The notes beneath the pieces were generated by a model. That model did no database searches and had not been told where the DNA came from. It saw only the letters and a program-made list of their open reading frames with translations. A program made the position numbers and the translations under genes. Below, piece after piece: positions 31,735 through 63,640 of a DNA stretch of 64,000 bases (positions are counted from its first letter, which is position 1; each line of letters begins with the position of its first letter). The stretch covers positions 1,691-65,690 of the forward strand of contig JAUILH010000006.1 in NCBI GenBank assembly GCA_030433115.1, given 5' to 3'. Source of the stretch: Bacteroidia bacterium. Its GTDB lineage: Bacteria > Bacteroidota > Bacteroidia > Flavobacteriales_D > JAUILH01.

Positions 31735-31851
31735 ACTTGCCCCATTTTAGTTTTGTTTAAGAATGCGGATGCCGGACTTTCACCCAGCTTATCGCAATAA
31801 AACAGCCAGGATTTCATAAATTAAGCGTTTAAATAATGATTTAACGCGCAT

Positions 31852-32340
31852 ATGAGCTCCAATCAACCAACACCTGAACAAGAAATTGCACGTCTTAAAA
31901 AAGAACTTCTGGAGGCAAAAACTGCACTCTCTGATCTCACTATGGTGTTTAATGAAATTCTTGAAGGAACCATGGCAGGTTATTGGGATTGGGACATCCC
32001 AAATGAACAGGAGTATATGAGCCCAACGTTTAAAAAAATGTTTGGTTATGAGGATCATGAAATAGCCAATACACCTGATTGGTGGCAGGCTAACATTTTT
32101 GAAGAAGATTTACCAGGTGTATTCAAAGTGTTTGAAGACCACGTAAAGAGCAAAGGAAAGATTCCTTATGACAACGTTGTGCGCTATCGGCATAAAAATG
32201 GGTCTACCGTATGGGTCTACTGCAGGGGTAAAGTCATTGAATGGAACAACGATGGAAGTCCCAAAAGAATGGTGGGTTCTCACATTGATATTACGGAACT
32301 AAAGACAGTACAATCTGAATTGCAGAACAAACAAGATTAG
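31852..32340 (+). CDS. PAS domain protein: the N-terminal part of a histidine kinase split by an in-frame TAG
   Basis: Coiled-coil then a PAS/PAC domain (GYWDWDIPNEQEYMSPTFKKMFGY...WVYCRGKVIEW..GSHIDITELK). It ends at TAG 32338-32340, in the same frame as the next ORF. Confidence 0.75.
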   Translation: MSSNQPTPEQEIARLKKELLEAKTALSDLTMVFNEILEGTMAGYWDWDIPNEQEYMSPTFKKMFGYEDHEIANTPDWWQANIFEEDLPGVFKVFEDHVKSKGKIPYDNVVRYRHKNGSTVWVYCRGKVIEWNNDGSPKRMVGSHIDITELKTVQSELQNKQD

Positions 32341-33420
32341 GTGGTTGAACACGAAATGCTGTACAGGTATTTATACGAAACAGCACACGAAATGCATGCA
32401 TCCGTTAGCCCCAAAAACGGATTGGTAATAAAATGCAACCATACTTTATGCGAGAAACTTGGATATACAAGAGAGGAAATAATTGGGCAACCAATATTCA
32501 ATTTATACGACCCTCAGAGCATGTCCGCAGCAGAAAAAGCATTTGAAAGTTTCCAGAAAAGCGGGGAGGTAAGAGATGCAGAGTTGATACTCAAAACCAA
32601 AAAAGGTCGAAAGCTAAATGTCATTCTGAATGTAAGCTCTGTTAGAAATAAGAAAGGCGATTTGTTGTACAGCAGAAGCAGCTGGTATGACATCACTGCT
32701 CGCAAGAGACAGGAAAATAAGGAAAGAGAAATGATGAAAATGCTGACACATAGAAACCAGGAAATGGAACAGTTTACTAGCATTATATCTCACGATCTAA
32801 ATGAACCAATCCGCACGATAAAAAGCTTTTCAGGCCTGCTTCATGACCGTTTGCAAGGTGAGGCAGATGACAAAACCATGCAGTATCTGGCCTTAACACG
32901 CAAGTCTGCAGATAAAATGCAGAAATTGGTAGATGCACTGCTGAATTATCGCAGATTGGGAAGTGCCAGTGTAGAATCTGATGTGTCACTACAATCTATC
33001 CTTGAGAATGAAATTAATGAGCTTGAAGGATATATCGAGCTTACTGGAGCTGAAATCAAGCTGGACGGCAATTTGCCAACGATTAAGGGATTTCCGGAGG
33101 ACCTGGCCGTTTTGTTCAGAAACGTCTTGCACAACGCCATCAAATTCGTGCCTGAAGATCGGACACCGCAGATAAAGATCAGTTCCAAAGAAGAGGCTGG
33201 TGGTGTTACGGTAGTCATTTCAGACAATGGAATTGGGATCGACCCTAAATATGCGAAGAAAGTATTCGAAATGTTCCAGCAATTGCATGTATTGAACGCA
33301 GATAGTGGAGTTGGTATGGGGCTCACTTACTGCCAAAAGGTAGCGGATTTACATAACGGCAAGATTTGGTTTGAGCCTCAACAAGTTGGCACTTGCTTTT
33401 ATATAAACTTCAACACTTGA
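32341..33420 (+). CDS. PAS + HisKA + HATPase histidine kinase (C-terminal part)
   Basis: H-box FTSIISHDLNEPIRTI, N-box NVLHNAIKF, and G-boxes DNGIGID / GVGMGL. It begins directly after the TAG. Confidence 0.8.
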   Translation: MVEHEMLYRYLYETAHEMHASVSPKNGLVIKCNHTLCEKLGYTREEIIGQPIFNLYDPQSMSAAEKAFESFQKSGEVRDAELILKTKKGRKLNVILNVSSVRNKKGDLLYSRSSWYDITARKRQENKEREMMKMLTHRNQEMEQFTSIISHDLNEPIRTIKSFSGLLHDRLQGEADDKTMQYLALTRKSADKMQKLVDALLNYRRLGSASVESDVSLQSILENEINELEGYIELTGAEIKLDGNLPTIKGFPEDLAVLFRNVLHNAIKFVPEDRTPQIKISSKEEAGGVTVVISDNGIGIDPKYAKKVFEMFQQLHVLNADSGVGMGLTYCQKVADLHNGKIWFEPQQVGTCFYINFNT

Positions 33421-33477
33421 TTTCTCTATTGAAAGCACTACATTTGCTTAAGCCCAAAAAAGCGCAAAACAGGAGCT

Positions 33478-34326
33478 ATGGTATTGAAAGTTGTAAGAGA
33501 CAATGCTTTAGATGAGAAACAGGAGATAAACATCTTACTGGTAGAGGACAATGAGCACGACATTATGCTTATTGAGGACGCCATGACTAGGGCAATTCCA
33601 GGGTCCAATCTAAGTATTTTTAGGGACGGTCAGTCAGCCATCGATTTTTTTCAAAATTATCCGTTACAGTCAAACTCATCGGTTGAACTGATTTTACTTG
33701 ATCTCAATATCCCTAAAGTAGACGGGTATGAAGTATTAAAGTTTTTAAGAGGTTCGGACCATTTCAAAACTGTACCCATCATCATTTTAAGTGGAAGTCC
33801 GGACCCCATGGATGTCATCAGATCTTATCAGAATCTTGCCAGTTCTTTTGTGAGAAAACCATCCGATTTTTCCCGATTGGTGAGTCTCATGTCGGATTTG
33901 CCAAATTACCAGAACCAGATCATGAGTCAAGCTTCAGAAAGACTTGTGCATGCGGCTCAACTACCCTCTCTTCCTGGGTCAGAGCCTGTCCCCTCAAAAA
34001 TTTCATTGACAACTCAAACGGGCGTTGAATACGTCTTAATTGATACCATTATTCGAGTTGAAGCGGACAGAGCTTATTGTAAGTTTCACATTGATGGAGG
34101 CAAGGTGATACATGTGTCAAAGTCCATGGGCAGTTTTGAGCCTGTTCTAGAGGCATATAAGTTCTTTAAACCGCACAAATCCAACCTTGTGAACGGACAT
34201 TACATTTCAAGGTATGTTAAGACCGACGGTGGCTACATAGAAATGTCCGATGGTAGCCATGTATCTGTAGCCGTTAGAAGAAGGGAAGATTTGTTTGAGT
34301 TCATGAGCCAGATTTCTTTGGCCTAG
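33478..34326 (+). CDS. Response regulator: REC domain + LytTR DNA-binding domain
   Basis: REC motifs ILLVEDNEHD, LILLDLNIPKVDG and PIIILSGS. The C-terminal LytTR-like block is IIRVEADRAYCKFHIDGGKVIHVSKSMGSFEPVL..FFKPHKSNLVN. Confidence 0.85.
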   Translation: MVLKVVRDNALDEKQEINILLVEDNEHDIMLIEDAMTRAIPGSNLSIFRDGQSAIDFFQNYPLQSNSSVELILLDLNIPKVDGYEVLKFLRGSDHFKTVPIIILSGSPDPMDVIRSYQNLASSFVRKPSDFSRLVSLMSDLPNYQNQIMSQASERLVHAAQLPSLPGSEPVPSKISLTTQTGVEYVLIDTIIRVEADRAYCKFHIDGGKVIHVSKSMGSFEPVLEAYKFFKPHKSNLVNGHYISRYVKTDGGYIEMSDGSHVSVAVRRREDLFEFMSQISLA

Positions 34327-34363
34327 ATAGTCTTCCCATACCAAAACATCTTTTATTCTAAAT

Positions 34364-34400
34364 AACTGTACGAAGGGAAATAAAAACCCTACGAAGGGAA
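34364..34400 (+). promoter_or_regulatory. Direct repeat pair (AACnnTACGAAGGGAA x2, 21-bp period): candidate LytTR regulator binding site
   Basis: TACGAAGGGAA occurs at 34369-34379 and again at 34390-34400, each preceded by AAC+2 nt. The pair lies between the LytTR gene stop (34326) and the first operon start (34493). Confidence 0.45.
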
Positions 34401-34492
34401 GATCGCGCAGGATAAAGAACACTCCTCATAATAATTTCAGTGACTGTTAATCTAACGGCATCAAAATCAACTGGAATAAGTCAATAATAGGA

Positions 34493-36136
34493 GTGCTAGG
34501 TCTATCAATCATACTGGTAAATAACAGCTTTAAGCTTGTTGGTCAAAAGAAATCCGAAAAACCAATTCATATTTCTGGTCAAGTTGGTGTTGGTTATGAA
34601 TACGGTCTATTGCCCTTTGTTTCGAACGCTCAACCCCCACAAGGAAATGCTTTTTCTAACGGTGTTTTAGGAGTCTGCTACAAAGGAGTACCATTGACAT
34701 TTAATTATCACTACTCCTCAGTTGGAACGATCAGTGGCTTGAACAACTATGCCAGATTAAGGTTTGATTCTCAGTCATACCGAAAACAACTCAAAGAAAA
34801 GCTTCAGAACTACAAGGCAGAAAAAATACAGCAATTAACCGACCTACAAGGTTACCGCCAAAAAATCCAACAGCAATTACTTTATCTGGATATGTTGGAA
34901 AAAGGAACTGTAAGCAATGCCCAGGCAAAACTACCAGAGTTACCAAGCTTAAACAAGCTGCCGTTTTCCTTGTCCTCAATACCAGGGTTTGAGCTGCCGT
35001 CAGAGGAATTGTCTCTTCCGGAAATAAATACCAACGACCACCTGCCTTTGGACAGTCTTAAGATGCCTTCAATCAAAGACAGTCTGGGTTTCAATGAGGC
35101 CCTTGGAAACAGGAAGACCCAACTGCTTAACATGTTGAGTTTGCTTCAGAAGGCAGAAGGCGCATTGGAGCAGCTGAAGGGAGCCTCTTTGGATAGTTTA
35201 TACCAATCACAAGAAATTCAAAAAGACTTACCAGGTCAGAGTAAACTAAAAAGAATTCTGTCATATACGGACAAGTTAGAGTTAGGGCTCTGTTATCCGG
35301 ATAACAACGTTTTTACAGTTGCCAGAACTCCGGTTCGAGGAGTTAATTTTGAATACAGCAAACACAACAAGTTTTTTGCATTTACCCATGGAAGAACAGT
35401 CAATAACCTGTTCATTGGGAATAACGTTTTGCAAAACAATTTAAATGCCGCAAGGAACCTGTACAACTTTTTCGATTTCAATAATGTTGAATCAGGTAGA
35501 AGAATTACTTCAATAAAATATGGGTGGGGAGCTAAGTCTGGAACTCACTTATATCTTGGGGTTCTGCATGGATATGGTAAAACATCTTATCTGGACTCAA
35601 TAAGTACAACAAAGGAGCATAATCTGGTGGGAGAAGTTGATGCTCAGTGGACCATTAACAAGACCAATCACCTGGCGTTTTCATATGGTCGTTCATACAT
35701 TCAAGCCGACCAAATCAACAATACAGAGCAAAGTGCAATTACAGCCTCTTTTTTTGATTTCACCCATAGGAGCAATGCCGCCTTGCTCAATTATAAGCTA
35801 GAACTTCCGAAAACCAGAACTGAAGTATCCGTGAGTGGGCGACTTGTGGATCCTTTCTTCAAAAGTTTGGGACTTGGTTTCATGCGTTCGGACAACCTAA
35901 GATATGAGGGCAGACTTAAACAAAGAATTGGCAAAACTTTCAAATTGTCTGGTTTTTACAGAAGAGAGCGAGATAACCTTTTGGCAATGTACGACTTCAA
36001 CAATGTATTGATGTCCTATGGCGTTGGAGCAGAGCTCAAAATCAAAAGATCAGGATTCGCAAAAGTAGATTTGCGACCTGTGGTTCATTCAATGGACGCG
36101 GAGTGGATAGTTTGGACTTTCAAAACAATAACCTAA
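34493..36136 (+). CDS. Putative outer-membrane beta-barrel-like protein, part 1
   Basis: GTG start with a weak signal-like N-terminus. Long runs of alternating-polarity strands rich in Y/G/N/S, with a central coiled-coil insert. No known motif. Confidence 0.4.
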   Translation: MLGLSIILVNNSFKLVGQKKSEKPIHISGQVGVGYEYGLLPFVSNAQPPQGNAFSNGVLGVCYKGVPLTFNYHYSSVGTISGLNNYARLRFDSQSYRKQLKEKLQNYKAEKIQQLTDLQGYRQKIQQQLLYLDMLEKGTVSNAQAKLPELPSLNKLPFSLSSIPGFELPSEELSLPEINTNDHLPLDSLKMPSIKDSLGFNEALGNRKTQLLNMLSLLQKAEGALEQLKGASLDSLYQSQEIQKDLPGQSKLKRILSYTDKLELGLCYPDNNVFTVARTPVRGVNFEYSKHNKFFAFTHGRTVNNLFIGNNVLQNNLNAARNLYNFFDFNNVESGRRITSIKYGWGAKSGTHLYLGVLHGYGKTSYLDSISTTKEHNLVGEVDAQWTINKTNHLAFSYGRSYIQADQINNTEQSAITASFFDFTHRSNAALLNYKLELPKTRTEVSVSGRLVDPFFKSLGLGFMRSDNLRYEGRLKQRIGKTFKLSGFYRRERDNLLAMYDFNNVLMSYGVGAELKIKRSGFAKVDLRPVVHSMDAEWIVWTFKTIT

Positions 36137-36615
36137 TTCTTAATGCGGTAGCGAATTACAGAATAAGAATAAAGAAAGACAACTACCTCACGACAACAGC
36201 CATTTATGCTTACTACAAACTGTATAATGGTGAAGAAAATCACACCTATCAAAACTTTAACGTCAATCTGCAAGCCTCAGTTAAAGACAAATGGCTTGTA
36301 AATGCCAATTACAACCAATATACCAGCACAGATACCGCTATTATTCCCCTTACTGGCTTGGCCGACTTGAGTCTTGAATACATTAGAAATAAGTGGTCTC
36401 TTAAAGGAGGAGGAAAGATGGCTGTACCCGGAGAAAATGGAGAACCACTGCAATGGGGATACTTGCTCGGAATCAGAAGTAAACTTTTTAAAAGAACAGA
36501 ATTAGAATTAACCGCAGAACGCCTGGTTATTGGGGATTTTTATAGCTCCGTTTTACTGGATAACGTTCTGGCTTACCCATACAATTTTAAAGCAATTATA
36601 AGCATTCAGATATGA
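36103..36615 (+). CDS. Beta-strand-rich ORF lacking a signal peptide; probably the frameshifted C-terminus of the preceding protein
   Basis: It overlaps the previous ORF by 34 nt in the -1 frame. Strand-like sequence (LILNAVANYRIRI.., TTTAIYAYYKLY.., WLVNANYNQY..). Confidence 0.4.
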   Translation: MDSLDFQNNNLILNAVANYRIRIKKDNYLTTTAIYAYYKLYNGEENHTYQNFNVNLQASVKDKWLVNANYNQYTSTDTAIIPLTGLADLSLEYIRNKWSLKGGGKMAVPGENGEPLQWGYLLGIRSKLFKRTELELTAERLVIGDFYSSVLLDNVLAYPYNFKAIISIQI

Positions 36616-37715
36616 TACGGATCATTAAAAAAACGGCCTTCCTTTTGCTTTTGTCGCTGACAGGAGCTCAATATTCCTCTGGTCAAGTAAGCATAAGTAA
36701 TGCCAACTTATTTCCATTTAATGTTACCAGACAGGCAATGGTTCAAGTGGCTATTATGAGCAATACTTCTCAAGCTCAAATCAGATTGGAAAGTTCGGTA
36801 AGCAATGCTTCAGGAGAAGTGCTTTATAAAGTCTCTACAGCACCATTTCAACTAAATATGGGCTTAAACAACGTATCGCTCTCTAAGGTTCAGATAATAG
36901 AAGAGAGCTACGGTATGTCGAATCAGGCGAGCTATGTTAAAACCAATCACCGGCTCCCCTCCGGGGCATTTAGTTTCTGTGTAGTAGCAATTCCCATAAG
37001 CGGACTGGAGAGTGGAGATGATTATTGTCTGGACATTGATGCAAGTGACAATGAATTTTTATCCCTTGTTTTTCCGAATGATGGAGACACCCTGGACACG
37101 GATCGTCCGGTGCTGAATTGGACGCATAGCGAATCTTTTAATTTGTTAACGGAAGGAGAGTTTTTCAAGTTGATTGTGGTTGAGAAAGAAAAAGACCAAT
37201 CAAATGAGGCTGCAGTAACGACCAACGAACCAGTTTTTCTGAAGAATTATGTTACGCGTCATCAGGTTCCTTATTCCCTGGATGCTAAAAAACTGGAAAA
37301 AGGAAAAACCTATGCCTGGCAAGTTCAAAAAATCTCCAGAGGCTCAATCGTAAACAAAACAGAAGCCTGGGAATTCATAATGCGTCCGGAAGAGGAAATA
37401 AAGGAACATATGTTCACCACATTAAAAAGAAAACTCGACGGAACATTTTACCATGTGTATAACGACAAAATTTACTTCCGGTTTGATGAAAGATACGCTA
37501 CTGGCAACCTAAACTGCCGAATTCTCAATGAGAAGCGTCAGGAAATTAAACCGGAAATGGAAAGTACAGAATCCCATTTAAGTAATCAGAAATCTGCAGG
37601 ATACAATCAATTTATTTTAGATCTGTTGCCCTTCAATCTTGAAAAGGGATTTTACATACTAGAATGCCTTGATGAAAAATCGGAGAAATTTTTACTGAAG
37701 TTTTATGTTGGTTAG
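36612..37715 (+). CDS. Secreted hypothetical protein
   Basis: Signal peptide MIRIIKKTAFLLLLSLTGAQYSSGQ. ATGA overlap with the upstream ORF. Confidence 0.5.
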   Translation: MIRIIKKTAFLLLLSLTGAQYSSGQVSISNANLFPFNVTRQAMVQVAIMSNTSQAQIRLESSVSNASGEVLYKVSTAPFQLNMGLNNVSLSKVQIIEESYGMSNQASYVKTNHRLPSGAFSFCVVAIPISGLESGDDYCLDIDASDNEFLSLVFPNDGDTLDTDRPVLNWTHSESFNLLTEGEFFKLIVVEKEKDQSNEAAVTTNEPVFLKNYVTRHQVPYSLDAKKLEKGKTYAWQVQKISRGSIVNKTEAWEFIMRPEEEIKEHMFTTLKRKLDGTFYHVYNDKIYFRFDERYATGNLNCRILNEKRQEIKPEMESTESHLSNQKSAGYNQFILDLLPFNLEKGFYILECLDEKSEKFLLKFYVG

Positions 37716-38361
37716 AATCAAATACATAACAGGGCTGATCATTTTGTTATCCATTAGTGGGTGCTTTAGACTTTCAGAAAACCAATCTGAACCCACCACT
37801 CGGGAAGAAGTGAATTCGGTAAAAATGAGTCAGAATTCTGTTGAAGGCATGGTGCCTTTGGCAGTTACAAGCCATGAGGTATTGTCGCCTAGAGACTACG
37901 TTTCTTGGGTAAGAAAAGAGGGGAATGGCTTAACCAAAGTGCAGTCGCGGGACCTAATGAGCGTACAATGCACCTATTTGCCACAAGACTATATGGTGTG
38001 CATGGAACTTAAGCAATCGGAAATTGACCAACCAACATATGAAGAAACTCTCAAACATTATTCTGGTTCACAGTATTTCAAATTTCGGGTATCAGGTATA
38101 AAAGAATCAGACAACCTGACATATCTGATGACCCACATGCAGCATGACATTAAGTTGGTGATTAAGCAGGACACAATTCCGTGTATCGAATATATCTGCG
38201 AGCCAATGATTAGCTCAACTGCGCCAATCTCAATCCTGGTGGGATTTGACTTAGAAGAACCCCAGGACATGCAATTAATCATAAAGAATCAGCAGACTCC
38301 AATTGAGTTTAACTGGCTTGAAGAAGACATAAAAAACGCTCCAAAACTTAAAAAAGGATGA
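37705..38361 (+). CDS. Hypothetical lipoprotein
   Basis: Lipobox-like LLSISGCFRL. It overlaps both neighbouring genes. Confidence 0.5.
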   Translation: MLVRIKYITGLIILLSISGCFRLSENQSEPTTREEVNSVKMSQNSVEGMVPLAVTSHEVLSPRDYVSWVRKEGNGLTKVQSRDLMSVQCTYLPQDYMVCMELKQSEIDQPTYEETLKHYSGSQYFKFRVSGIKESDNLTYLMTHMQHDIKLVIKQDTIPCIEYICEPMISSTAPISILVGFDLEEPQDMQLIIKNQQTPIEFNWLEEDIKNAPKLKKG

Positions 38362-41300
38362 GTTACCAAGAGAAACTTAGAATTAGACAAATCATTTTGA
38401 GGATCACATCCTTAAAAATGGCCATGGTCATGATGCTAACCTCCACATTATTCTTGTGGCCCGAAGAAGCTTCTGCATTAACAGGTGGACCAACTCAACC
38501 AGAAGTGAGCAGTTTTTCGCCAGTTGGCACGTCAGATATGGTAGACCCCTTTTCCGGGAATTTTAATTACAACATTCCTCTACTAGATGTTGGTGGCTAC
38601 CCCATCAACCTGGTGTACAATTCCGGCATTTCTATGGACCAGGAAGCGTCATGGGTTGGACTCGGCTGGAATGTCAACGCAGGAGTCATCAACCGAACGG
38701 TAAGAGGGTTGCCAGATGATTTTGACGGAGACACGATTGTGACAACAACAAGCATGAAGCCTATGACGACTTTTGGGCTCACGTATGGAAAGGACTTTGA
38801 GTTTTTTGGAATTACCAAGAATGAAGACAATAAAAAAATAGATACCAGCTTACTTGACCTTAATCTTGGCCTGTCGTTGGGCTTTAACTGGAATAATTAC
38901 ACAGGAATTGGTGCAGAAATAGGCTTGAATCCATCATTCTCAGCTGGAGATAAGAACAAAAACGAATACACAGCTGGATTGGGCTTTAACTCAAGCAGTG
39001 GAGGAGGTTTGAGTATTCAGCCCTCAGCTTCATTTTCAGGGGCAGAGAGGGAGAATAAATCAGAGTCAAAGTTAAAATCTGTAGCAGGTGGATTTCAAAG
39101 TGCATTTAATTCGCGTGAGGGATTAACCGCTTTATCTGTGTCTGGAAATGCGAATATGGCCAGGGCTAAAGAAGGGAAATCACATTTGACCTACAACCTT
39201 GGTGGAACCGCAAGTTTCGATTTTGGCCAACCTACCTACACGCCTTCTGCAAACATTTCAAAAAACAGCTTTGGTTTATCAGCAAGCTTTAAAATTGGAG
39301 CAGAAGTAATTGGAGCCGATATAGGTCAGAGAATAAGCGGTTATTACAATCGGCAATGGATTGCTAAAACTGACAGAATTGCTCAAAACAGGGCCTATGG
39401 TTATTTCAATCTGGAAAATGGACAGAAAGACGATCAGGCGTTATTAGATTTCAATAGAGAAAATGATGGGGCCTATACTTCTGAAACGCCTCTATTACCA
39501 ATGGCTAACTTAACAAATGATGTGTTTTCCGTATCTGGTCAGGGTGTTGGTGGCAGCTTCAGAGGCTTTAGAAATGATGTAGGTCATGTGTTTGACAACA
39601 GCACAGCCACAAACAGTGTTAATGGCAATTTGGGAATAGAGACAGCTACTGGGAATTTAGTTAAAGGCGGGCTTCAGGTTGGAGTTACCTGGTCCAACAC
39701 TCAAACAGGAAAATGGACTAAAAAGAATGACGCTTTGGCTGCAACCACTCACAGACAAAATAAAGCTTACAAAACCTATGAGCACTACCACCTAAAAGAA
39801 GCCAGTGAAAAAAATGTGTCTGCCGATCCCGGTTATATGAGCAGGGTAGGAGGGGTAGACCCCATGCATGTAGATATTTCCAAAGTAGGACTTTTTGGCG
39901 CTCAAGCTAAGAGCAAGTTGGTGAACCACAATGGTACAAGACAAACCATTAGCTCGGCAAGCACTTATAGAAATCAGCGCGAAAAACGGAATCAGTTGAT
40001 GAATGTGCTGCCCAGAGTTAGAGTAAACGAGGGGCACGGACTCAATTTCCTGCCTTCAAATTCCTACGCGAAAACCAACGGTAAAAACCACCATGTGTGT
40101 GAAATCACCAATCTGTCTTCAGATGGCAGTCGTTATGTCTATGGACTTCCCGCATACAATACCAAGAAAAAGGAAGTGACCTTTGCAATTGGAGATAAAA
40201 TTATAGGAACCGGAAGTAACGGTGAATATCCCTATGACCCTGATTGTGCAAACGGTCTTGTGCAGTATGACCCAGGCACCACAGCAACTACAGACAACCC
40301 ATGGGGTGTAGATCAGTATTATAATTCGGTTGAAACACCAGCCTATGCACATGCCTTCATGTTAACAGCCGTGATTAGCCCTGATTATCAGGATGTAGAC
40401 GGCGTTAAAGGACCTAGCGACGGAGACTTGGGAAATTACACCAAGTTTCACTACAAACAAGTAGATGACTATAAGTGGCGTGTGCCATTTCAACAGAATA
40501 GTGCCCACTATAACGAAGGGCTCAGAAGCGATCAATATGATGACAAAGCCAACTACATCTACGGTGAAAAGGAGCTATGGTATCTGGATTCTATTGTGAC
40601 CAAAAACTTCATTGCCATATTCCATACCAATGATAGAGAAGATGGCTGTGGTGTAACAGGAGAGCATGGCGGTCTTGAGACCTCAAATCGAATGCAGAAA
40701 CTGACAAAAATCAGCCTCTATGCCAAACCGGATTACTATGCCAATGGCGTAAACGCCGAGCCGATTAAAGAAGTGCATTTTGAATACAGCTACGAACTGT
40801 GTCCGGACGTTCCCAATAACACGGATGCAGATTATGACCACGACGGGGATCCTGCAACAGCAAAACTCACTAATGAACGCGGAAAATTAACCCTCAAAAA
40901 AGTCTACTTCACTTATAGAGGATCCCAAAGGGGAAAATACAGTGCGTATGATTTTACGTATGGCGGCGACAACAATTATGCTTACAATATGAAGGCCAAT
41001 GACAGGTGGGGAACCTATAAGTACAATCCGGTCACAACGGACTGTGATGTGGTCAATGATTCCTTAAACACATCCGATTTCCCATATACAAATCAATTTG
41101 ATTCAGCCACTCAGGATCTATATGTGTCCGCCTGGTCACTCACGGAAATAGACTTGCCTTCGGGAGGTAAAATCCAGGTAGAGTATGAAAGTGATGACTA
41201 CGCTTATGTCCAATATAAACAAGCCATGCAAATGTTTAAAATTAAGGGACTTCAGAATGGAAGTGGTAGCGCAGTGTTTTCAGGTGTTCAACCCATAAGC

Positions 41301-44060
41301 AACGGAACAAATAAAAATTGGAGACTGCTGTTTGAGCTTCAGCCGGGTTATACCAATATATCGGACTATTTCGAGGGTGTTGACAACTTATATTTCAGAT
41401 GCCTTATGGAGTTTGATGAACCGGGAGGCGGAACAGATGGACGATATGATTTTGTTTCGGGATACGCCAAAATAGACGGCAATAGTTATGGTCAATATGA
41501 CGCCACAACTGGCTATGTGGATCTTAAGAAAGTCTCATTTAAAGACAATGGCAGTGAAGATTATAGTCCCATAGCACTTGCAGGCATCCAATATGGGCGT
41601 TTGCATCTTTCAAGGTTTGTCAATGATCAACCGGCATTGAGTGAAGATGATGGTCTTGGCAAACAAGTTCTTAGTGCTTTTGTGACGTCTATTACGAACT
41701 TCAAAGATGGCTTTAAGAATCCCAATAAATCTATTTGGGACAAGGAAAGAGGCACCAAAATAGTACTCAATAAGTCGTGGATTCGCCTCAACAATGTTAA
41801 CGGTCATAAAAAGGGCGGTGGTCATCGCGTAAAAAGCATCAAAATGGTAGACGAATGGGATGCCATGACCGATAACCAAATGAATGAGTTTACCTACGGT
41901 CAGGAATATATCTATGAATTAGAAAATGGTAGATCTTCCGGTGTTGCTGCTTACGAACCGCAGGTGGGTGGAGAAGAAAATCCGTTTAAACAACCAATTA
42001 CTTATTCGGAGAAAAAGACTTTGGCTCCGGATGCAAGGTTCTACAAGGAAACACCCGTTGGTGAATCATTTTTCCCTTCAGCCAACGTAGGATATAGCAG
42101 AGTAGTGATCAAAAATATTGATCACGACAACGTGAAATCCCACGCCACTGGTAAGGTGGTGCATGAGTTTTACACTGCTCGAGATTTTCCCACATTGGTG
42201 AGATATACACCTGTAGAGAAGTTTAGGCAGAAATCCCCATCATTCAATATAGTATCCCTTTTAAAGGCTGTTTCGTATGACATGATGACGGCTTCTCAAG
42301 GATTTGTAATTGAGTGCAATGATATGCACGGGAAGCAAAAGGCGCAATATGTGTACGCTGAAAATAAATCTACACCGATCACTAGTGTAGAGTACTATTA
42401 TCAAGACGCACCAAATGGCACACAACGTAGGCTGACAAATCAAGCCAATGTAATTAATGAAGATGGTTCTGTTGCTCAGGCAGAACTGGGTGTCTTTTTC
42501 GATATGGCGGTTGACTACAGGGAGTCCAAGAGTAGAACCTTGGCCCCAAACATCAATACGCATGTAGATGCTTTTGTCATTCCTTTTCTTCCGCCAATAG
42601 TCGTTCCGATTCCTTCTTGGATCCCTCAATTCAACTACGAAAAAACCAGATTCAGATCTGCTACAACCACTAAGGTCATTCAACGTTTTGGAATTCTGGA
42701 AAAAGTTGTGGCTACAGACCTGGGCTCCAGGGTAGAGACCAAAAACCTGGCCTATGATGCCGAATCGGGGGAGGTTTTACTAACGCAAACCCAAACCAAT
42801 TTTGAAGATGCAGTTTACAGCCTAAAATACCCTGCGTATTGGCATTATGATGGCATGGGAATGGCCTATAAAAACATTGGATATGAGGATCAATTGACCT
42901 TTGACGCCAATGGAGTTGCAACAGTGAGTGATGCACAAGAATACTATGTGGAAGGAGACGAACTCTTATTGATTGGTCTTAATGACAAGGTCTGGGTGAC
43001 AGATGTGTCAAGTGGCTCAATCACAGCCTTGAAAACGGATGGTTCTCCGGTGTCTGGGTCATTTTCTAGTGAAGTCATCAGGTCTGGAAGAAGGAATCTG
43101 CAAAATTTGCCAATGGCAAGCATCACTACTCGTGAAAACCCACTGAATGCGCTAAAGTCCAATGTTTATGAGAATGTCTTACAAGCCTCTGCTATTGAGT
43201 ACGGAAATGCCTGGAGAACTTATTGCGAATGTTTTGGATCGGGGAATAATGGTATAGGACCAATTAGCTCTACAAATCCATATGTGCTGGGAACCAAAGG
43301 CAACTTCAGACCAAAGTCTTCCTACTTGCACTTATCAGACAGAACTCAAAGTGATTACAACGACAATACCAACATCCGAAAAGACGGCATGTTCAAATCT
43401 TACAGACCATTCTACAGATTAAATCCTTCTGGGGAGTGGGAGATTGATAGAAAAGACTGGACATATACGGCAGAGGTGACCGAATTTAGTCCGCTTGGAC
43501 AAGAACTGGAAAACCAGGATGCGCTGGGTAGATATTCAGCAGCAACCTTTGGTTTCAACCAAACTCTGGCGACTTCTGTTGCGGCCAACGCACAATATAG
43601 AGAGATAGGTTTTGATGGTTTTGAAGACTATGATTTTAATCCTTGCGCTGATGGGCATTTCAAATTTATTAAGGACAGCGTTACTATAGACGATTCCGAA
43701 TCCCATTCCGGAACACATAGTATCAAGGTAAGTAGCGGCAGTCCGGCCACCCTTACCAGACAAATTAGTGACTGGTGTGCACCAACAGCTTGTGCTGTAG
43801 ACATTGATACCAGCTATGGACAAGATGGATCAGGAAACGATATTCTTACAATTGTACCTACCGGAGGCAATGGAAGCTATCTCGTTAACTGGGATGTGAT
43901 ATCAGGCTCACCAATCATTAACTATACACCATCTGAACATGCCATAATAATGAGACTCACAGGCAGCTATTCGATTACCATTAGCTACAAAGACACTGAT
44001 GGCTGTGAAGTGATCAAGACAATTTCAATCACTAACGGAGCATTCTCAGAAATTTTATAA
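38358..44060 (+). CDS. 1900-aa SpvB/TcB-like N-terminal domain protein with YD-like segments and a C-terminal jelly-roll + SprB-like repeat
   Basis: After the signal peptide comes LTGGPTQPEVSSFSPVGTSDMVDPFSGNFNYNIPLLDVGGYPINLVYNSGISMDQEASWVGLGWNVN, an SpvB/TcaC N-terminal-type motif. TcdB-mid-like blocks follow (FMLTAVISPDYQDVDG..GNYTKFHY; WSLTEIDLPSGGKIQVEYESDDY). The end contains PTGGNGSYLVNWD. Confidence 0.65.
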   Translation: MSYQEKLRIRQIILRITSLKMAMVMMLTSTLFLWPEEASALTGGPTQPEVSSFSPVGTSDMVDPFSGNFNYNIPLLDVGGYPINLVYNSGISMDQEASWVGLGWNVNAGVINRTVRGLPDDFDGDTIVTTTSMKPMTTFGLTYGKDFEFFGITKNEDNKKIDTSLLDLNLGLSLGFNWNNYTGIGAEIGLNPSFSAGDKNKNEYTAGLGFNSSSGGGLSIQPSASFSGAERENKSESKLKSVAGGFQSAFNSREGLTALSVSGNANMARAKEGKSHLTYNLGGTASFDFGQPTYTPSANISKNSFGLSASFKIGAEVIGADIGQRISGYYNRQWIAKTDRIAQNRAYGYFNLENGQKDDQALLDFNRENDGAYTSETPLLPMANLTNDVFSVSGQGVGGSFRGFRNDVGHVFDNSTATNSVNGNLGIETATGNLVKGGLQVGVTWSNTQTGKWTKKNDALAATTHRQNKAYKTYEHYHLKEASEKNVSADPGYMSRVGGVDPMHVDISKVGLFGAQAKSKLVNHNGTRQTISSASTYRNQREKRNQLMNVLPRVRVNEGHGLNFLPSNSYAKTNGKNHHVCEITNLSSDGSRYVYGLPAYNTKKKEVTFAIGDKIIGTGSNGEYPYDPDCANGLVQYDPGTTATTDNPWGVDQYYNSVETPAYAHAFMLTAVISPDYQDVDGVKGPSDGDLGNYTKFHYKQVDDYKWRVPFQQNSAHYNEGLRSDQYDDKANYIYGEKELWYLDSIVTKNFIAIFHTNDREDGCGVTGEHGGLETSNRMQKLTKISLYAKPDYYANGVNAEPIKEVHFEYSYELCPDVPNNTDADYDHDGDPATAKLTNERGKLTLKKVYFTYRGSQRGKYSAYDFTYGGDNNYAYNMKANDRWGTYKYNPVTTDCDVVNDSLNTSDFPYTNQFDSATQDLYVSAWSLTEIDLPSGGKIQVEYESDDYAYVQYKQAMQMFKIKGLQNGSGSAVFSGVQPISNGTNKNWRLLFELQPGYTNISDYFEGVDNLYFRCLMEFDEPGGGTDGRYDFVSGYAKIDGNSYGQYDATTGYVDLKKVSFKDNGSEDYSPIALAGIQYGRLHLSRFVNDQPALSEDDGLGKQVLSAFVTSITNFKDGFKNPNKSIWDKERGTKIVLNKSWIRLNNVNGHKKGGGHRVKSIKMVDEWDAMTDNQMNEFTYGQEYIYELENGRSSGVAAYEPQVGGEENPFKQPITYSEKKTLAPDARFYKETPVGESFFPSANVGYSRVVIKNIDHDNVKSHATGKVVHEFYTARDFPTLVRYTPVEKFRQKSPSFNIVSLLKAVSYDMMTASQGFVIECNDMHGKQKAQYVYAENKSTPITSVEYYYQDAPNGTQRRLTNQANVINEDGSVAQAELGVFFDMAVDYRESKSRTLAPNINTHVDAFVIPFLPPIVVPIPSWIPQFNYEKTRFRSATTTKVIQRFGILEKVVATDLGSRVETKNLAYDAESGEVLLTQTQTNFEDAVYSLKYPAYWHYDGMGMAYKNIGYEDQLTFDANGVATVSDAQEYYVEGDELLLIGLNDKVWVTDVSSGSITALKTDGSPVSGSFSSEVIRSGRRNLQNLPMASITTRENPLNALKSNVYENVLQASAIEYGNAWRTYCECFGSGNNGIGPISSTNPYVLGTKGNFRPKSSYLHLSDRTQSDYNDNTNIRKDGMFKSYRPFYRLNPSGEWEIDRKDWTYTAEVTEFSPLGQELENQDALGRYSAATFGFNQTLATSVAANAQYREIGFDGFEDYDFNPCADGHFKFIKDSVTIDDSESHSGTHSIKVSSGSPATLTRQISDWCAPTACAVDIDTSYGQDGSGNDILTIVPTGGNGSYLVNWDVISGSPIINYTPSEHAIIMRLTGSYSITISYKDTDGCEVIKTISITNGAFSEIL

Positions 44061-44062
44061 TT

Positions 44063-45022
44063 ATGAATTACAGAATTTACATAACAATTATAGCTGCACT
44101 GGCAAGTCATTTAAGCTGGGGTCAAATCTGTCCAACAAACACCAGTTGTGCTACCGCTCAGAATTTGTGTGAGGCGGACACCGCAGCATGGCAATGTATG
44201 CCCTGTAGCATGGGATCGAATCCCGAAATATGGTTTGAGTTCACTGTGAACGCCACAGGAAGCATTCCAATGAATTTCTATGACGCCACAGGGTGGCCGT
44301 ATGCAAACATTTTCACCGGTTATGAGTTATATGGACCACTACCAAGCCTTCATGATTGTAGCAATTTACCGTCTCCAATAGCATCTTCTACAGATACAGC
44401 GGGCTTCTATTTTGCAAATATCACCAGTGGTCACTACTTACTTAAAATCAACGTGCTTGGTTGTGCGGATTCTCTTCAGAAAGTAAAAGTATTTCTGGAA
44501 GGCGCTGACCCATTGGTGTGTGCCAACGACTCCGCTTCTTGTGAAAACTGCATTGGCTCCTTTGCGCCAATACCAGGTAAAAAATATGTATTAAGCGCCT
44601 GGACCAAAGAAGACAATCCTTCGTTGAGTAAAACAAGCTACACAAACCCCGAAATATATCTTGATTTTCCCTCTGCAAGCACCACACTTGGACCGTTTAA
44701 TCCCGCAGGAGAAATCATTGATGGTTGGCAAAGAATAGAACAAGAGTTCACGGTTCCGGCTACCGCCAATGAGATTAAACTAAGGCTACAAAGTGCCTCC
44801 GGAGACGTGTATTTCGATGACATTAGAATATTTCCTTTTGATGCAAGTATGAAGTCGTATGTCTACGACCCAGTTAATATGCGCTTAGCAGCAGAGTTGG
44901 ACGAGAGACATTATGCCACCTACTACGAATATGATGAAGAGGGCAAACTAATACGTGTGAAGAAAGAAACCGAAAAAGGCGTGATGACCATCCAGGAAAC
45001 CCGAAATAACGCTTCAAAATAA
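44063..45022 (+). CDS. Secreted Cys-rich protein with a jelly-roll (CBM-like) domain and a YD-repeat-like tail
   Basis: Signal peptide, then a Cys-rich N-terminus (ICPTNTSCATAQNLCE..CMPC). The sequence continues ..VYFDDIRIFPFD.. and SYVYDPVNMRLAAELDERHYATYYEYDEEGKLIRVKKE. Confidence 0.5.
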   Translation: MNYRIYITIIAALASHLSWGQICPTNTSCATAQNLCEADTAAWQCMPCSMGSNPEIWFEFTVNATGSIPMNFYDATGWPYANIFTGYELYGPLPSLHDCSNLPSPIASSTDTAGFYFANITSGHYLLKINVLGCADSLQKVKVFLEGADPLVCANDSASCENCIGSFAPIPGKKYVLSAWTKEDNPSLSKTSYTNPEIYLDFPSASTTLGPFNPAGEIIDGWQRIEQEFTVPATANEIKLRLQSASGDVYFDDIRIFPFDASMKSYVYDPVNMRLAAELDERHYATYYEYDEEGKLIRVKKETEKGVMTIQETRNNASK

Positions 45023-45029
45023 TAGAGAT

Positions 45030-45752
45030 ATGAAACGACTAACTACAAGTATCCTTCTTTTAATAAGTCTGACATCTGGTGCGCAAACAGGCTCTAACAT
45101 TGATGTTGATGAAATGTCTCAAGTGCTCAAACAAGTTGCAGACAAATATACTGCAATGAGCGATTACAGCTTTAATGTCACATATACTTCATATAAAGGT
45201 CACTCAGGGAATGTCATTGCCGATAAATCCAGTGGAGTTTTCAAAAAGTCAGGACAAAAAATGTACGCCAATATCATGGGTATGGAAACGGTTCAGGATG
45301 ATAAAATTCGAATTCTGACATTGGAGCAGGAAAAGCTGATGTTTGTGTATGAACCAAAGCCCATGGAAGAAACTATGGATATTGATGCTTATTCCAAAGC
45401 ACTGAATGATGCCTCAAAAATAACTAAAAGGCATTCCGGGTCTCAACAAATCTTTGTCATCTATTTCAAATCATATTCAACACTAGAAAAGATGGTGCTC
45501 TACCTGAATGATGACCTGTTTATCACCAAAGTAAAGTTGTTTTATGCAGAAGCTCAATCGTGGGAAGTTGGAAGCGGAGTGACCAAAAGCGCGAAACCAA
45601 GACTTGAAATCAATTATAGCAACTTTTCTTTTAGCCCTGTTAAGCCAAACAGTTTTAACACGGCTCAATATGTGACGACAAGTGGAACCTCCTATAAAAC
45701 CACCAGTCAATACGCCAGATACGAATTAAATAACATGATCCTTTCTAAATAA
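45030..45752 (+). CDS. Secreted hypothetical protein (LolA/LolB-like fold suspected)
   Basis: Signal peptide MKRLTTSILLLISLTSGAQ. The size and strand pattern resemble lipoprotein-sorting-like proteins. This is a weak call. Confidence 0.35.
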   Translation: MKRLTTSILLLISLTSGAQTGSNIDVDEMSQVLKQVADKYTAMSDYSFNVTYTSYKGHSGNVIADKSSGVFKKSGQKMYANIMGMETVQDDKIRILTLEQEKLMFVYEPKPMEETMDIDAYSKALNDASKITKRHSGSQQIFVIYFKSYSTLEKMVLYLNDDLFITKVKLFYAEAQSWEVGSGVTKSAKPRLEINYSNFSFSPVKPNSFNTAQYVTTSGTSYKTTSQYARYELNNMILSK

Positions 45753-60937: not shown

Positions 60938-61285
60938 GTGAGCAGTAAATACAAAATAAACAATCCAGACGGCATCTACTTTATAAGCTTTGCAACAGTT
61001 GGATGGATAGATGTATTTACCAGAAAAGCTTACAAGGATATACTGGTAGATAGCTTAGAGTATTGTCAAAAAGAAAAGGGTTTAGAGCTGTATAGTTGGT
61101 GTATAATGAGCAATCATGTTCACTTAATAGCCAAAAGTAAAACAGGTGATTTAAGCGGCACATTAAGAGATCTGAAACGACATACCAGTAAAACCATTAT
61201 AGAGGCCATTAAAAACCATCCACAAGAGTCTAGGCGCGAATGGAAGTCACATTCCAATTGTCACCTAAACCACATAACCGATTGA
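60938..61285 (+). mobile_element. IS200/RAYT-like Y1 (HUH) transposase, 3'-truncated remnant
   Basis: SSKYKINNPDGIYFISFATVGWIDVFTR..YSWCIMSNHVHLIAK (HUH motif)..ESRREW. Homology then stops abruptly where the tandem repeat begins, and the C-terminal catalytic-Tyr region is missing. Confidence 0.7.
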
Positions 61286-61572
61286 TAATGAGCAACAATT
61301 ATTTTGAAAACCCTCAAATTTCAGGGGTGTTTGGGCCTCATTGGTGTAAAGAAAGTCTCTTAGAAGCGCTTAAAACGAGTATTAAAAACCTCATGTTCCA
61401 ATTGTCAGTCACATTCCAATTGTCACCTAAACCACATAACCGATTGATAATGAGCAACAATTATTTTGAAAACCCTCAAATTTCGGGGGTGTTTGGGTCT
61501 CATTTGTGTAAAGAAAGTCTCTTAGAAGCGTTTAAAACGAGTATTAAAAACCTCCTGTTCCAATTGTCACCT
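61246..61572. repeat. Tandem direct repeat, 162-bp unit x2 plus a partial third start
   Basis: Copy 1 is 61246-61407 and copy 2 is 61408-61569, with 5 mismatches in 162 nt. The 12-mer TTCCAATTGTCA occurs four times, marking the unit ends. Confidence 0.9.
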
Positions 61573-63004: not shown

Positions 63005-63621
63005 GGACTGTAAACAAATTAGCTACACCTAGTGGTCAAGCAGAATTGACTATTGAAACTGGTCAAGGAGTTATAACCACAGTTGAAGTGATGTATACCT
63101 ACTATGACATGATGTTTAATGAGGGTAGGAACACTACATATGATGATATCAAACAAGGCAGTGTTTGGCTTAATTCATTTGATTTGACCAATCCTGAAAC
63201 AGCAGGAAGTTTTGCAGCTAACTTTTTTATGTTTGGAGGAGGAAATTGGCTCAGGGGATTGACTATTAAGCCAAAACTTCCACCTAAAGGTGGTGTCCTG
63301 AAATATGAGCCACCTGTGACAAATGAAATTTATAAAAGACCTAACAATGCAACAACACCTACCCAAAGAGCTTCAGTACAGAATCAGCCTTGTGTAGATT
63401 GTGGTGCAACAGGGCAAAAGAATGTTGCGGATCACAAAACTCCACTGGTAAAGGAACATTATGAAACAGGAACAATAGATTTAGAACGCATGAAATCTGT
63501 TGATGCTGTTCAGCCCCAGTGTCCATCATGTTCAGCGAAACAAGGTGCTTCAATGAGTAGTTATTCAAAAGCAATGAAAAGTGTTATTGAAAAAAGGACA
63601 AATTCAGGAGGAGAACAGTAA
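62962..63621 (+). CDS. Continuation of the orphan toxin tip in the -1 frame; C-terminal HNH/EndoVII-like nuclease suspected
   Basis: This frame opens right after a TGA at 62956 and overlaps the previous ORF by 43 nt. The C-terminus CVDCGATGQKNVADHKTPLVKEHY...QCPSCSAKQG has a Cys4 + DH pattern like small HNH/EndoVII toxin domains. Confidence 0.5.
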   Translation: MGGEVYGVSGKTSVRTVNKLATPSGQAELTIETGQGVITTVEVMYTYYDMMFNEGRNTTYDDIKQGSVWLNSFDLTNPETAGSFAANFFMFGGGNWLRGLTIKPKLPPKGGVLKYEPPVTNEIYKRPNNATTPTQRASVQNQPCVDCGATGQKNVADHKTPLVKEHYETGTIDLERMKSVDAVQPQCPSCSAKQGASMSSYSKAMKSVIEKRTNSGGEQ

Positions 63622-63640
63622 TTATAATTAACTTAGTAAG

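What the first reader, a model, noticed from the sequence alone, without database searches (positions are those of the whole stretch)
34364..34400. Perfect 11-bp direct repeat at 21-bp spacing between the LytTR regulator gene and the toxin operon
Seen: TACGAAGGGAA occurs at 34369-34379 and 34390-34400, a period of exactly 21 bp. Each copy is preceded by AAC+2 nt. The pair lies about 95-125 bp upstream of the first operon start codon and about 40 bp after the LytTR regulator stop.

Established: LytTR regulators (AgrA, ComE, PlnC/D, BlpR, FsrA) bind pairs of 9-11-bp direct repeats about two helical turns apart. They typically control toxin, bacteriocin or quorum loci.

Inference: the adjacent PAS kinase and REC-LytTR pair probably switches on the RHS toxin operon through this site.
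Basis: partly seen in the sequence, partly recalled or inferred. Interest (0 to 1): 0.65.

Follow-up and report, generated by a model that had tools for sequence, protein, structure and literature searches.

The report
Candidate LytTR operator before toxin operon
A perfect 11-base sequence, repeated two DNA turns apart between a LytTR-type regulator gene and a large RHS toxin operon in a Flavobacteriales genome, is most likely that regulator's docking site; this is an ordinary kind of switch, and it could not be checked by comparison because no related locus exists in public data.

Summary
TACGAAGGGAA occurs at 34369-34379 and 34390-34400, period 21, each copy preceded by AAC+2 nt. It lies 42 bp after the REC-LytTR gene and 92-124 bp before the first operon gene.

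It is unlikely to be chance but not overwhelmingly so. The empirical rate gives about 0.002 such repeats for this 166-bp spacer, yet five comparable short-range repeats occur in the window.

The geometry matches published LytTR operators: two 9-11 nt repeats on a roughly 21-bp period. The core is 11/11 identical while the next 10 nt are 1/10 identical, so it is not a recent duplication. The spacer lacks a canonical Bacteroidota -7 box; the regulator gene has a full one and the kinase's PAS ORF has a -7 box.

Binding and activation remain inference. The regulator is an orphan chimera of a phytochrome-type receiver and a LytTR domain. None of 26 fetched loci carrying the homologous operon (some redundant) has this two-component system or the repeat, and no second site exists in the window.

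An in-frame TAG interrupts the kinase gene and a 1-nt deletion splits the first operon gene, so the circuit may be decaying.

Verdict: a plausible new member of a known kind, of moderate to low interest.

The parts
34369..34379 (+). Direct repeat copy 1 (promoter-distal half-site), TACGAAGGGAA
34390..34400 (+). Direct repeat copy 2 (promoter-proximal half-site), TACGAAGGGAA
34361..34400 (+). Extended site: two 19-nt units (AAnAACnnTACGAAGGGAA) at 84% identity, with an A-tract (ATAAAAA) in the spacer between the cores
   Evidence: sequence
34432..34439 (+). Only -7-box-like element downstream of the repeats. TAATTTCA has 2 mismatches to the Bacteroidota TAnnTTTG. It lies 31 bp after copy 2 and 61 nt before the start codon, with no TTG at the -33 position. 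Weak candidate for an activator-dependent promoter (inferred).
33478..34326 (+). Response regulator gene: receiver of the Rcp1/bacteriophytochrome type (D75 and K127 intact), a roughly 40-aa helical/disordered linker, and a LytTR DNA-binding domain (residues about 172-280)
33417..33446 (+). Canonical Bacteroidota promoter for the regulator gene: TTG-N19-TACATTTG, 39 nt upstream of the ATG
31852..33420 (+). Sensor kinase reading frame, PAS-PAS-HisKA-HATPase_c, interrupted by an in-frame TAG at 32338-32340. The catalytic part (32341/32356-33420) keeps its H-box and ATPase motifs.
34493..36615 (+). First operon gene. It encodes a roughly 717-aa protein of a Bacteroidota family of about 660-930 aa (a few members hit OMP_b-brl). 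Here it is split by a 1-nt deletion at about 36101-36103 into ORFs 34493-36136 and 36103-36615.
36612..45752 (+). Middle of the operon: 367-aa, 218-aa, 1900-aa and 319-aa proteins with no annotated family, then a LolA3-family protein (45030-45752). Starts and stops overlap or lie close together, so co-transcription is likely.
45762..60479 (+). 4905-aa RHS-family polymorphic toxin: DUF6443, BNR-like repeats, Laminin_G_3, Rhs_assc_core at residues 4575-4643, and a variable C-terminus of about 260 aa
60472..60843 (+). Small ORF overlapping the toxin gene's stop. Its N-terminus looks like a lipoprotein signal. Candidate immunity gene (inferred from position only).

Best explanation
The two TACGAAGGGAA copies are the tandem half-sites of an operator for the REC-LytTR response regulator encoded immediately upstream.

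Inferred mechanism. The cytoplasmic PAS-HisKA kinase phosphorylates D75 of the receiver. A regulator dimer then places its two LytTR domains on the same face of the DNA, two helical turns apart, on the two repeats. From about -50 and -70 it recruits or repositions RNA polymerase at a weak promoter around 34432-34445 that lacks a -33 element. This switches on the long operon that ends in an RHS-family toxin.

Shown: the repeat; its non-random character; the identity and intact motifs of the regulator; the match of the site's geometry to known LytTR operators; and the absence of a canonical promoter in the spacer.

Inferred: binding, the direction of regulation (activation), the transcription start, and whether the circuit still works given the two gene lesions.
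For: 1. Site architecture equals the LytTR paradigm. It is an 11-nt direct repeat on a 21-bp period. The published rule is two 9-11 nt repeats with 11-13 nt spacers (PMC4847170). YpdB's site GGCATTTCAT-N11-GGCATTTCAT is also a perfect repeat on a 21-bp period.

2. It adjoins a bona fide LytTR regulator. The phospho-acceptor D75 and K127 sit in alignment columns that are invariant.

3. About 0.002 such repeats are expected in this spacer from the empirical background.

4. Conservation is confined to the core. The core is 11/11 identical, the 10 nt that follow are 1/10 identical, and the 10 nt before are 5/10 identical (sequence). This fits selection on a recognition element, not a recent duplication.

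5. Promoter logic. TAnnTTTG is enriched in noncoding DNA here: 12 of 46 hits fall in 8% of the window. The regulator gene has a full TTG-N19-TACATTTG promoter and the PAS ORF has a TAGTTTTG box 104 nt upstream. The operon spacer has none; its best element is TAATTTCA. The proximal repeat would end 7-8 bp upstream of the expected -33 position, within the 4-11 bp range reported for LytTR promoters.

6. The same gene geometry is known. In LytSR-lrgAB, the two-component genes are followed by a downstream target operon that they control (PMC5675857 abstract).

7. The repeat is not an RNA element, a dispersed repeat or a terminator.
Against: - There is only one site and no comparative support. The regulator has no ortholog in 5.8 billion clustered proteins; the best full-length LytTR relative is 29% identical, and the single domain-only hit is 49%.
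- Loci of the nearest LytTR domains show no similar motif.
- Homologous operons elsewhere lack both the regulator and the repeat.
- No second copy lies upstream of the two-component genes, whereas many LytTR systems autoregulate.
- Five perfect >=11-bp short-range repeats occur in the window, so such repeats are not rare in real sequence.
- The candidate -7 box is weak, and no terminator separates the regulator gene from the operon. Read-through could therefore drive the operon without a dedicated promoter.
- The kinase frame carries an in-frame TAG and the first operon gene a frameshift.
- The pattern was absent from the genome collection, and the four metagenome hits were unrelated.
Confidence: 0.55

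Rival explanations
1. Chance or neutral repeat with no function. A short direct repeat happens to lie in this AT-rich spacer.
For: The window holds five perfect >=11-bp repeats at offsets 12-40, about 8 times the shuffle expectation, so short-range repeats are common in real DNA. There is no second site, no conservation data and no strong promoter nearby.
Against: Only about 0.002-0.005 such repeats are expected in the spacers flanking the two-component genes. The period is exactly the LytTR-typical 21 bp. The motif is not low-complexity. Identity is confined to the core. The 11-mer is absent from about 600 kb of related DNA.
Confidence: 0.2
2. It is a real operator, but for a different transcription factor encoded elsewhere in the genome. 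AraC/XylS-type regulators, for example, also use direct repeats about 21 bp apart.
For: Direct repeats on a 21-bp period are not unique to LytTR proteins (established knowledge of AraC I1-I2 and XylS sites, not tested here). Only 64 kb of the genome is visible. Homologous operons elsewhere sit next to other regulators, for example a divergent REC-GerE gene in L002/L003 (L090 is the same arrangement).
Against: No AraC-family gene is in the window; the other regulators are an ECF sigma factor and an HxlR protein, plus an ORF with a weak POPDC/cyclic-nucleotide-binding-like hit. The LytTR gene is 42 bp away and its family's site rule fits exactly.
Confidence: 0.12
3. It is a genuine LytTR site in a decaying or rewired circuit. 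The site exists, but it no longer switches the operon or acts differently, for example as a repressive roadblock to read-through from the regulator gene.
For: An in-frame TAG splits a kinase that homologs encode as a single roughly 520-aa chain. A 1-nt deletion splits the first operon gene. No terminator lies between the regulator gene and the operon. The only two visibly split reading frames among the 36 ORFs of >=150 aa listed for the window both lie in this module.
Against: The catalytic half of the kinase and the regulator keep all their motifs. The 1900-aa and 4905-aa genes are intact, so any decay is very recent, or the lesions are assembly errors. LytTR regulators acting from upstream of a promoter are usually activators.
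Confidence: 0.08
4. It is a remnant of a 21-bp tandem duplication (replication slippage) with no regulatory role.
For: The units are head-to-tail on a fixed period. The 8 nt upstream of each core share 5 of 8 bases.
Against: The 10 nt after the cores are 1/10 identical while the cores are 11/11 identical. Neutral decay of a duplication would not spare 11 contiguous bases. Tandem Repeats Finder was not run on this spacer.
Confidence: 0.05

Closest known systems
YpdB operator in the E. coli yhjX promoter (LytS/LytTR-type system YpdA/YpdB)
   Same: Two identical direct repeats (GGCATTTCAT-N11-GGCATTTCAT) on a 21-bp period upstream of the promoter, bound sequentially by two regulator molecules (PMC4847170). 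The length, perfection and period are nearly the same as here.
   Different: The sequence is unrelated. YpdB is paired with a LytS-type kinase and its target is not adjacent to it. Binding is shown experimentally there and not here.
AgrA sites at agr P2/P3 (Staphylococcus aureus)
   Same: A LytTR regulator dimer binds two direct repeats just upstream of weak promoters with suboptimal elements and activates virulence or toxin genes (PMC4227749).
   Different: The organism is Gram-positive with sigma-70-type promoters, an HPK10 kinase (AgrC) and peptide quorum sensing, and the system autoregulates. Here the promoter type is Bacteroidota, the kinase is a cytoplasmic PAS-HisKA type, and no autoregulatory site was found.
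LytSR-lrgAB
   Same: The gene geometry matches: kinase, then LytTR regulator, then the regulated operon immediately downstream on the same strand (PMC5675857 abstract).
   Different: The target there encodes small membrane proteins and the kinase is LytS-type. I did not check the operator sequence of that system.
HdrR/BrsR LytTR regulatory systems (Streptococcus mutans and others)
   Same: 9-bp direct repeats with 11-12 bp spacers lie 4-11 bp upstream of the -35 and control bacteriocin (toxin) genes. Repeat sequences vary between systems while the geometry is conserved (PMC6193735).
   Different: Those regulators lack a receiver domain and are controlled by a membrane inhibitor protein. They autoregulate through the same repeats.
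Ordinary Bacteroidota REC-LytTR regulators (P0004-P0006, P0016, P0210)
   Same: The LytTR domains are visibly similar in alignment A2: 49% identity for P0210, with shared blocks such as IIRVEADR and DGGYIEMSDGS.
   Different: Their receivers are of the usual LytTR-regulator type and their kinases are PF06580 His_kinase proteins with TPR or Reg_prop/Y_Y_Y sensors. Here the receiver is phytochrome-type and the kinase is PAS-HisKA. No similar repeat lies near those genes.

Membership tests
LytTR-family response regulator (the protein at 33478-34326) | LytTR DNA-binding domain (PF04397) above the curated threshold | tested here: met
   37.6 bits against a cut-off of 22.6, E 2.6e-9, residues 185-275
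LytTR-family response regulator (the protein at 33478-34326) | Receiver domain with the phospho-acceptor Asp and conserved Lys | tested here: met
   Response_reg scores 57.2 bits. D75, K127 and P128 are invariant and D24 nearly invariant in alignment A2. The closest solved receivers are phytochrome response regulators.
LytTR-family response regulator (the protein at 33478-34326) | Mainly-beta LytTR fold | tested here: met
   In the AF2 model, residues about 171-280 have block-mean pLDDT 86-97 and form about 10 strands. The best PDB match is full-length ComE, 4cbv, E 1.7e-12 over 274 columns. There is no sequence-level PDB match for the domain alone.
LytTR-family response regulator (the protein at 33478-34326) | Usual partner kinase (LytS/PF06580 or AgrC/HPK10 type) | tested here: not met
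   The partner has HisKA (PF00512) plus HATPase_c with PAS domains. Relatives of the LytTR domain pair with PF06580 kinases. This is a typical association, not a strict requirement.
LytTR-type operator (the DNA site) | Two direct (or inverted) repeats of 9-11 nt | tested here: met
   Two identical 11-nt copies; rule from PMC4847170
LytTR-type operator (the DNA site) | Spacer of 11-13 nt, that is a period of about 20-22 bp | tested here: met
   The period is 21 bp. The spacer is 10 nt if all 11 identical bases count as core and 12 nt for a 9-nt core. YpdB's site has the same 21-bp period.
LytTR-type operator (the DNA site) | Position just upstream (4-11 bp) of the -35-equivalent element of the regulated promoter | tested here: inconclusive
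   No transcription start is known. The only -7-like box downstream is TAATTTCA at 34432, with 2 mismatches. That would put copy 2 about 7-8 bp upstream of the expected -33 position. No sigma-70-type promoter was found.
LytTR-type operator (the DNA site) | Specific binding by the cognate LytTR protein | not testable with these tools
   Needs EMSA, footprinting or DAP-seq
LytTR-type operator (the DNA site) | Conservation of the repeat in orthologous spacers, or further copies in the regulon or at the regulator's own promoter | tested here: not met
   There is no second pair in the window. No orthologous spacer exists in public data. The pattern is absent from the genome collection, and the metagenome hits are unrelated. 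This is supporting evidence, not a strict requirement of the family.
RHS-family polymorphic toxin operon (the regulated genes) | RHS repeat-associated core domain preceding a variable C-terminal toxin | tested here: met
   TIGR03696 scores 41.4 bits against a cut-off of 32.5 at residues 4575-4643 of the 4905-aa protein, with about 260 aa following. A second orphan cassette at 61742-63004 carries the same core and is followed by an Imm33-like gene.
RHS-family polymorphic toxin operon (the regulated genes) | RHS/YD repeats forming the shell | tested here: inconclusive
   No Pfam RHS_repeat or NCBIfam YD-repeat hit at E <= 0.01. DUF6443, BNR-like and Laminin_G_3 domains were found instead.

The most novel reading that the evidence does not exclude
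A domain-shuffled signalling pair controls a conserved but uncharacterised Bacteroidota export operon for a giant RHS toxin, acting through this site. The pair is a cytoplasmic PAS-HisKA kinase and a phytochrome-type receiver that was fused to a LytTR DNA-binding domain. To my knowledge (the one literature search on this found nothing relevant) this would be an early defined LytTR operator in Bacteroidota, a phylum where, to my knowledge, LytTR regulators are numerous and their operators uncharacterised. It would also be an example of environmental (redox, light or metabolite) control of RHS-mediated antagonism.
Probability: 0.3. Interest if true: 0.5.

Novelty: new member of a known kind. Interest (0 to 1): 0.35.

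Why it matters
If the regulator binds here, the site gives a concrete and easily testable operator for a LytTR regulator in Bacteroidota. To my knowledge such regulators are abundant in this phylum and their DNA targets are essentially unknown. It would also link a PAS sensor to expression of an RHS toxin and its poorly understood accessory operon. The operon comprises an outer-membrane-like protein, 367-, 218-, 319- and 1900-aa proteins of unknown function, and a LolA3-family protein. The regulator itself shows how a receiver from one signalling lineage can be grafted onto a LytTR output. Beyond that, this is an expected type of regulatory element and not a new mechanism.

Tried and rejected
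- **Exact pattern in genome contigs:** the repeat pair with a 10-nt gap gave 0 hits.
- **Same pattern in metagenome contigs, gaps 9-12:** 4 hits, all unrelated coding or tandem repeats.
- **Orthologs of the regulator:**
  - none in genome contigs;
  - none above 29-35% identity in the 5.8-billion-cluster protein set;
  - the LytTR domain alone found one 49% relative, on a truncated contig with a TetR-efflux context and no similar repeat.
- **Exact look-up of the window's regulator:** not on record.
- **Loci of the 1900-aa protein, searched with the single sequence:** none.
- **Loci of the first operon gene:** 4 contigs and 22 genome loci. None has the kinase or regulator by tblastn, and their upstream neighbours are unrelated genes.
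- **Spacers next to four related REC-LytTR genes:** no core-like motif and no repeat on a roughly 21-bp period that could be relevant.
- **Other readings of the spacer:**
  - Rfam found nothing.
  - RNA folding gave z = -0.83.
  - The sigma-70 promoter and intrinsic terminator scans found nothing in the spacer.
- **ECF-sigma promoter reading** (AAC ... CGT): rejected by eye because the AAC-to-CG spacings are 4 and 25 nt, not about 16-17.
- **Third half-sites at plus or minus 21 bp:** at most 5/11 matches. The 9/11 match at 34277 lies in the coding sequence for the RRRED residues near the C-terminus of the regulator's LytTR domain.
- **PDB sequence search with the 1900-aa protein:** nothing.
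- **Literature on LytTR binding sites in Bacteroidetes:** nothing relevant.

Full report
**1. Observation**

The sequence reads AAATAACTG-TACGAAGGGAA-ATAAAAACCC-TACGAAGGGAA-GATCGCG. The two 11-mers are at 34369-34379 and 34390-34400, exactly as reported. Each copy is preceded by AAC plus two bases. The repeat finder extends the pair to two 19-nt units at 84% identity.

The pair lies in a 166-bp spacer (34327-34492). On one side is the TAG stop of a REC-LytTR gene (33478-34326). On the other is the first possible start, GTG 34493, of a long run of same-strand genes.

**2. Is it more than chance?**

- Dinucleotide shuffles give 0.117 perfect >=11-bp direct repeats at offsets 20-23 per window, and 0.65 at offsets 12-40.
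- The real window has 5 at offsets 12-40, so shuffles understate the background about 8-fold.
There were 8, or 0.013 per kb. That gives about 0.002 expected in this spacer and about 0.005 in all three spacers flanking the two-component genes.
- The 11-mer is absent from those loci. In the window it has only one 10/11 relative, inside a coding region.
- The cores are 11/11 identical, the next 10 nt are 1/10 identical and the preceding 10 nt are 5/10 identical. This argues against a recent 21-bp duplication and for constraint on a core element.

The repeat is real and moderately significant, but it is a single instance.

**3. Surroundings**

*The organism.* It is a Flavobacteriales bacterium near Crocinitomicaceae/Fluviicola. 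Its MnmG is 83% identical to MAG YZ09aB_2.97 and 74% to Fluviicola.

*The kinase.* Upstream lies a PAS ORF (31852-32340), followed in the same frame after a TAG by PAS-HisKA-HATPase_c (32341-33420). Many single-chain kinases of about 520 aa align without a break across the TAG position. An ancestrally single gene is therefore interrupted here. TAG is a normal stop in this genome, because the regulator gene itself ends in TAG. The catalytic half keeps its H-box and ATPase motifs.

*The regulator.*
- It has a receiver (residues 19-136), a helical/disordered linker and a LytTR domain (185-275).
- The receiver resembles phytochrome-associated regulators such as Rcp1, RcpA and the Deinococcus BRR, with target-normalised TM-score up to 0.85.
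- The LytTR domain resembles those of ordinary Bacteroidota REC-LytTR regulators. It is 49% identical to P0210, the closest, and shares sequence blocks with the others. Their partner kinases are PF06580 proteins.
- The protein is therefore a chimera.
- The AF2 model is confident (pLDDT 85) and its best PDB match is full-length ComE.
- D75 and K127 are intact.

*The downstream genes.*
- The first gene belongs to a Bacteroidota family of about 660-930 aa and is split here by a 1-nt deletion near 36101-36103.
- Next come 367-, 218-, 1900- and 319-aa proteins with no annotated family.
- These are followed by a LolA3-family protein.
- The run ends in a 4905-aa protein with DUF6443, Laminin_G_3 and an RHS-associated core.
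- After it come a small candidate immunity ORF, an orphan RHS cassette and an Imm33-like gene.

"RHS toxin operon" is therefore a fair label for the end of the operon, although classical RHS/YD repeats were not detected.

**4. Promoter context**

The Bacteroidota -7 box TAnnTTTG is enriched in noncoding DNA of this window: 12 of 46 hits fall in 8% of the sequence.

The regulator gene has a textbook TTG-N19-TACATTTG promoter 39 nt upstream of its ATG. The PAS ORF has TAGTTTTG 104 nt upstream.

The operon spacer has no such box. The only element downstream of the repeats is TAATTTCA at 34432, with 2 mismatches and no -33 TTG. If that is the -7 box, copy 2 ends about 7-8 bp upstream of the -33 position. 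The half-site centres would then lie near -50 and -70.

This is the arrangement reported for LytTR-activated promoters: repeats 4-11 bp upstream of the -35, and weak core elements. It is consistent with the hypothesis, but it remains an inference without a mapped start site.

No sigma-70-type promoter or intrinsic terminator is present, so read-through from the regulator gene cannot be excluded.

**5. Comparative tests**

All attempts to find an orthologous spacer failed for a substantive reason: the pairing is unique.

- The regulator has no ortholog.
- The nearest LytTR domain sits in an unrelated context.
- The homologous operon occurs in many Bacteroidota, but at varied genomic places. Its upstream neighbours are unrelated, or in one case a divergent REC-GerE regulator. 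It never has this kinase, regulator or repeat.
- In the closest available genome the operon lies on a different contig from mnmG.
- The exact pattern is absent from the genome collection. The four metagenome hits are unrelated coding or tandem repeats.

Conservation can neither support nor refute the hypothesis.

**6. Mechanism and rivals**

| Explanation | Probability |
|---|---|
| Tandem LytTR operator for the adjacent regulator, activating a weak operon promoter | 0.55 |
| Chance repeat | 0.20 |
| Operator for another factor encoded outside the window | 0.12 |
| Real site in a decaying or repressive circuit | 0.08 |
| Slippage remnant | 0.05 |

An ECF-promoter reading was rejected on spacing. 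RNA-element readings were rejected by Rfam and folding.

**7. Comparison with known systems and novelty**

In geometry the site is nearly identical to the YpdB operator, a perfect 10-mer on a 21-bp period. It follows the general LytTR rule. In gene order it resembles LytSR-lrgAB.

It differs in four respects: the phylum and promoter type, the non-canonical kinase and receiver lineage, the lack of an autoregulatory copy, and the target, which is a giant RHS toxin operon.

It is best filed as a predicted new member of a known kind of element. Interest is moderate to low at 0.35. The mechanism would not surprise a specialist, the evidence is a single site, and two lesions cast doubt on whether the circuit currently works. 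It is, however, cheaply testable by EMSA and reporter assays.

Noticed in passing
window 32338-32340 (within 31852-33420): An in-frame TAG separates a PAS ORF from a PAS-HisKA-HATPase ORF. Single-chain homologs of about 520 aa align straight across this position, so the sensor kinase gene carries a premature stop. It could be a nonsense mutation, an assembly error or a recent split.
   Followed up: yes
window 36098-36105 (ORFs 34493-36136 and 36103-36615): The first operon gene is split by an apparent 1-nt deletion that is not in a homopolymer run. Homologs are single proteins of about 660-930 aa whose C-terminal part matches the second ORF. This and the kinase TAG are the only two visibly split reading frames among the 36 ORFs of >=150 aa listed for the window.
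   Followed up: partly
window 33478-34326: The response regulator is a domain chimera. Its receiver is of the Rcp1/bacteriophytochrome type, normally a stand-alone protein. It is fused through a roughly 40-aa linker to a LytTR domain typical of Bacteroidota regulators that pair with PF06580 kinases. No protein with this combination was found at more than 35% identity.
   Followed up: yes
window 34493-60479; also L002, L004, L090-L111: A gene cluster conserved across Bacteroidota has almost no family annotation. It runs: a roughly 700-aa outer-membrane-like protein, a roughly 365-aa protein, sometimes a roughly 200-aa protein, a roughly 1900-aa protein with no Pfam, NCBIfam or PDB match, a roughly 320-aa protein, and a LolA3-family protein. 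In the window a giant DUF6443/RHS-core protein follows. It may be a dedicated export or assembly apparatus for the RHS protein. LolA3 deletion has no known phenotype in F. johnsoniae.
   Followed up: partly
window 60938-61285 and 61245-61569: A truncated IS200-like (Y1_Tnp) transposase ORF is followed by a 162-bp unit repeated twice in tandem at 96% identity. Both lie between the main RHS gene and the orphan RHS cassette.
   Followed up: partly
window 61742-63985: An orphan RHS C-terminal cassette (Laminin_G_3, Rhs_assc_core and a variable tip; 61742-63004) is followed by a 219-aa ORF with no family and then an Imm33-like immunity gene (63641-63985). This is the usual layout of a polymorphic-toxin displacement array.
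   Followed up: partly
window 33417-33446 and 31748-31755: The Bacteroidota -7 motif TAnnTTTG is enriched in noncoding DNA. A full TTG-N19-TACATTTG promoter sits in the 57-bp gap between the kinase and regulator genes, so the regulator can be transcribed independently of the interrupted kinase gene.
   Followed up: partly
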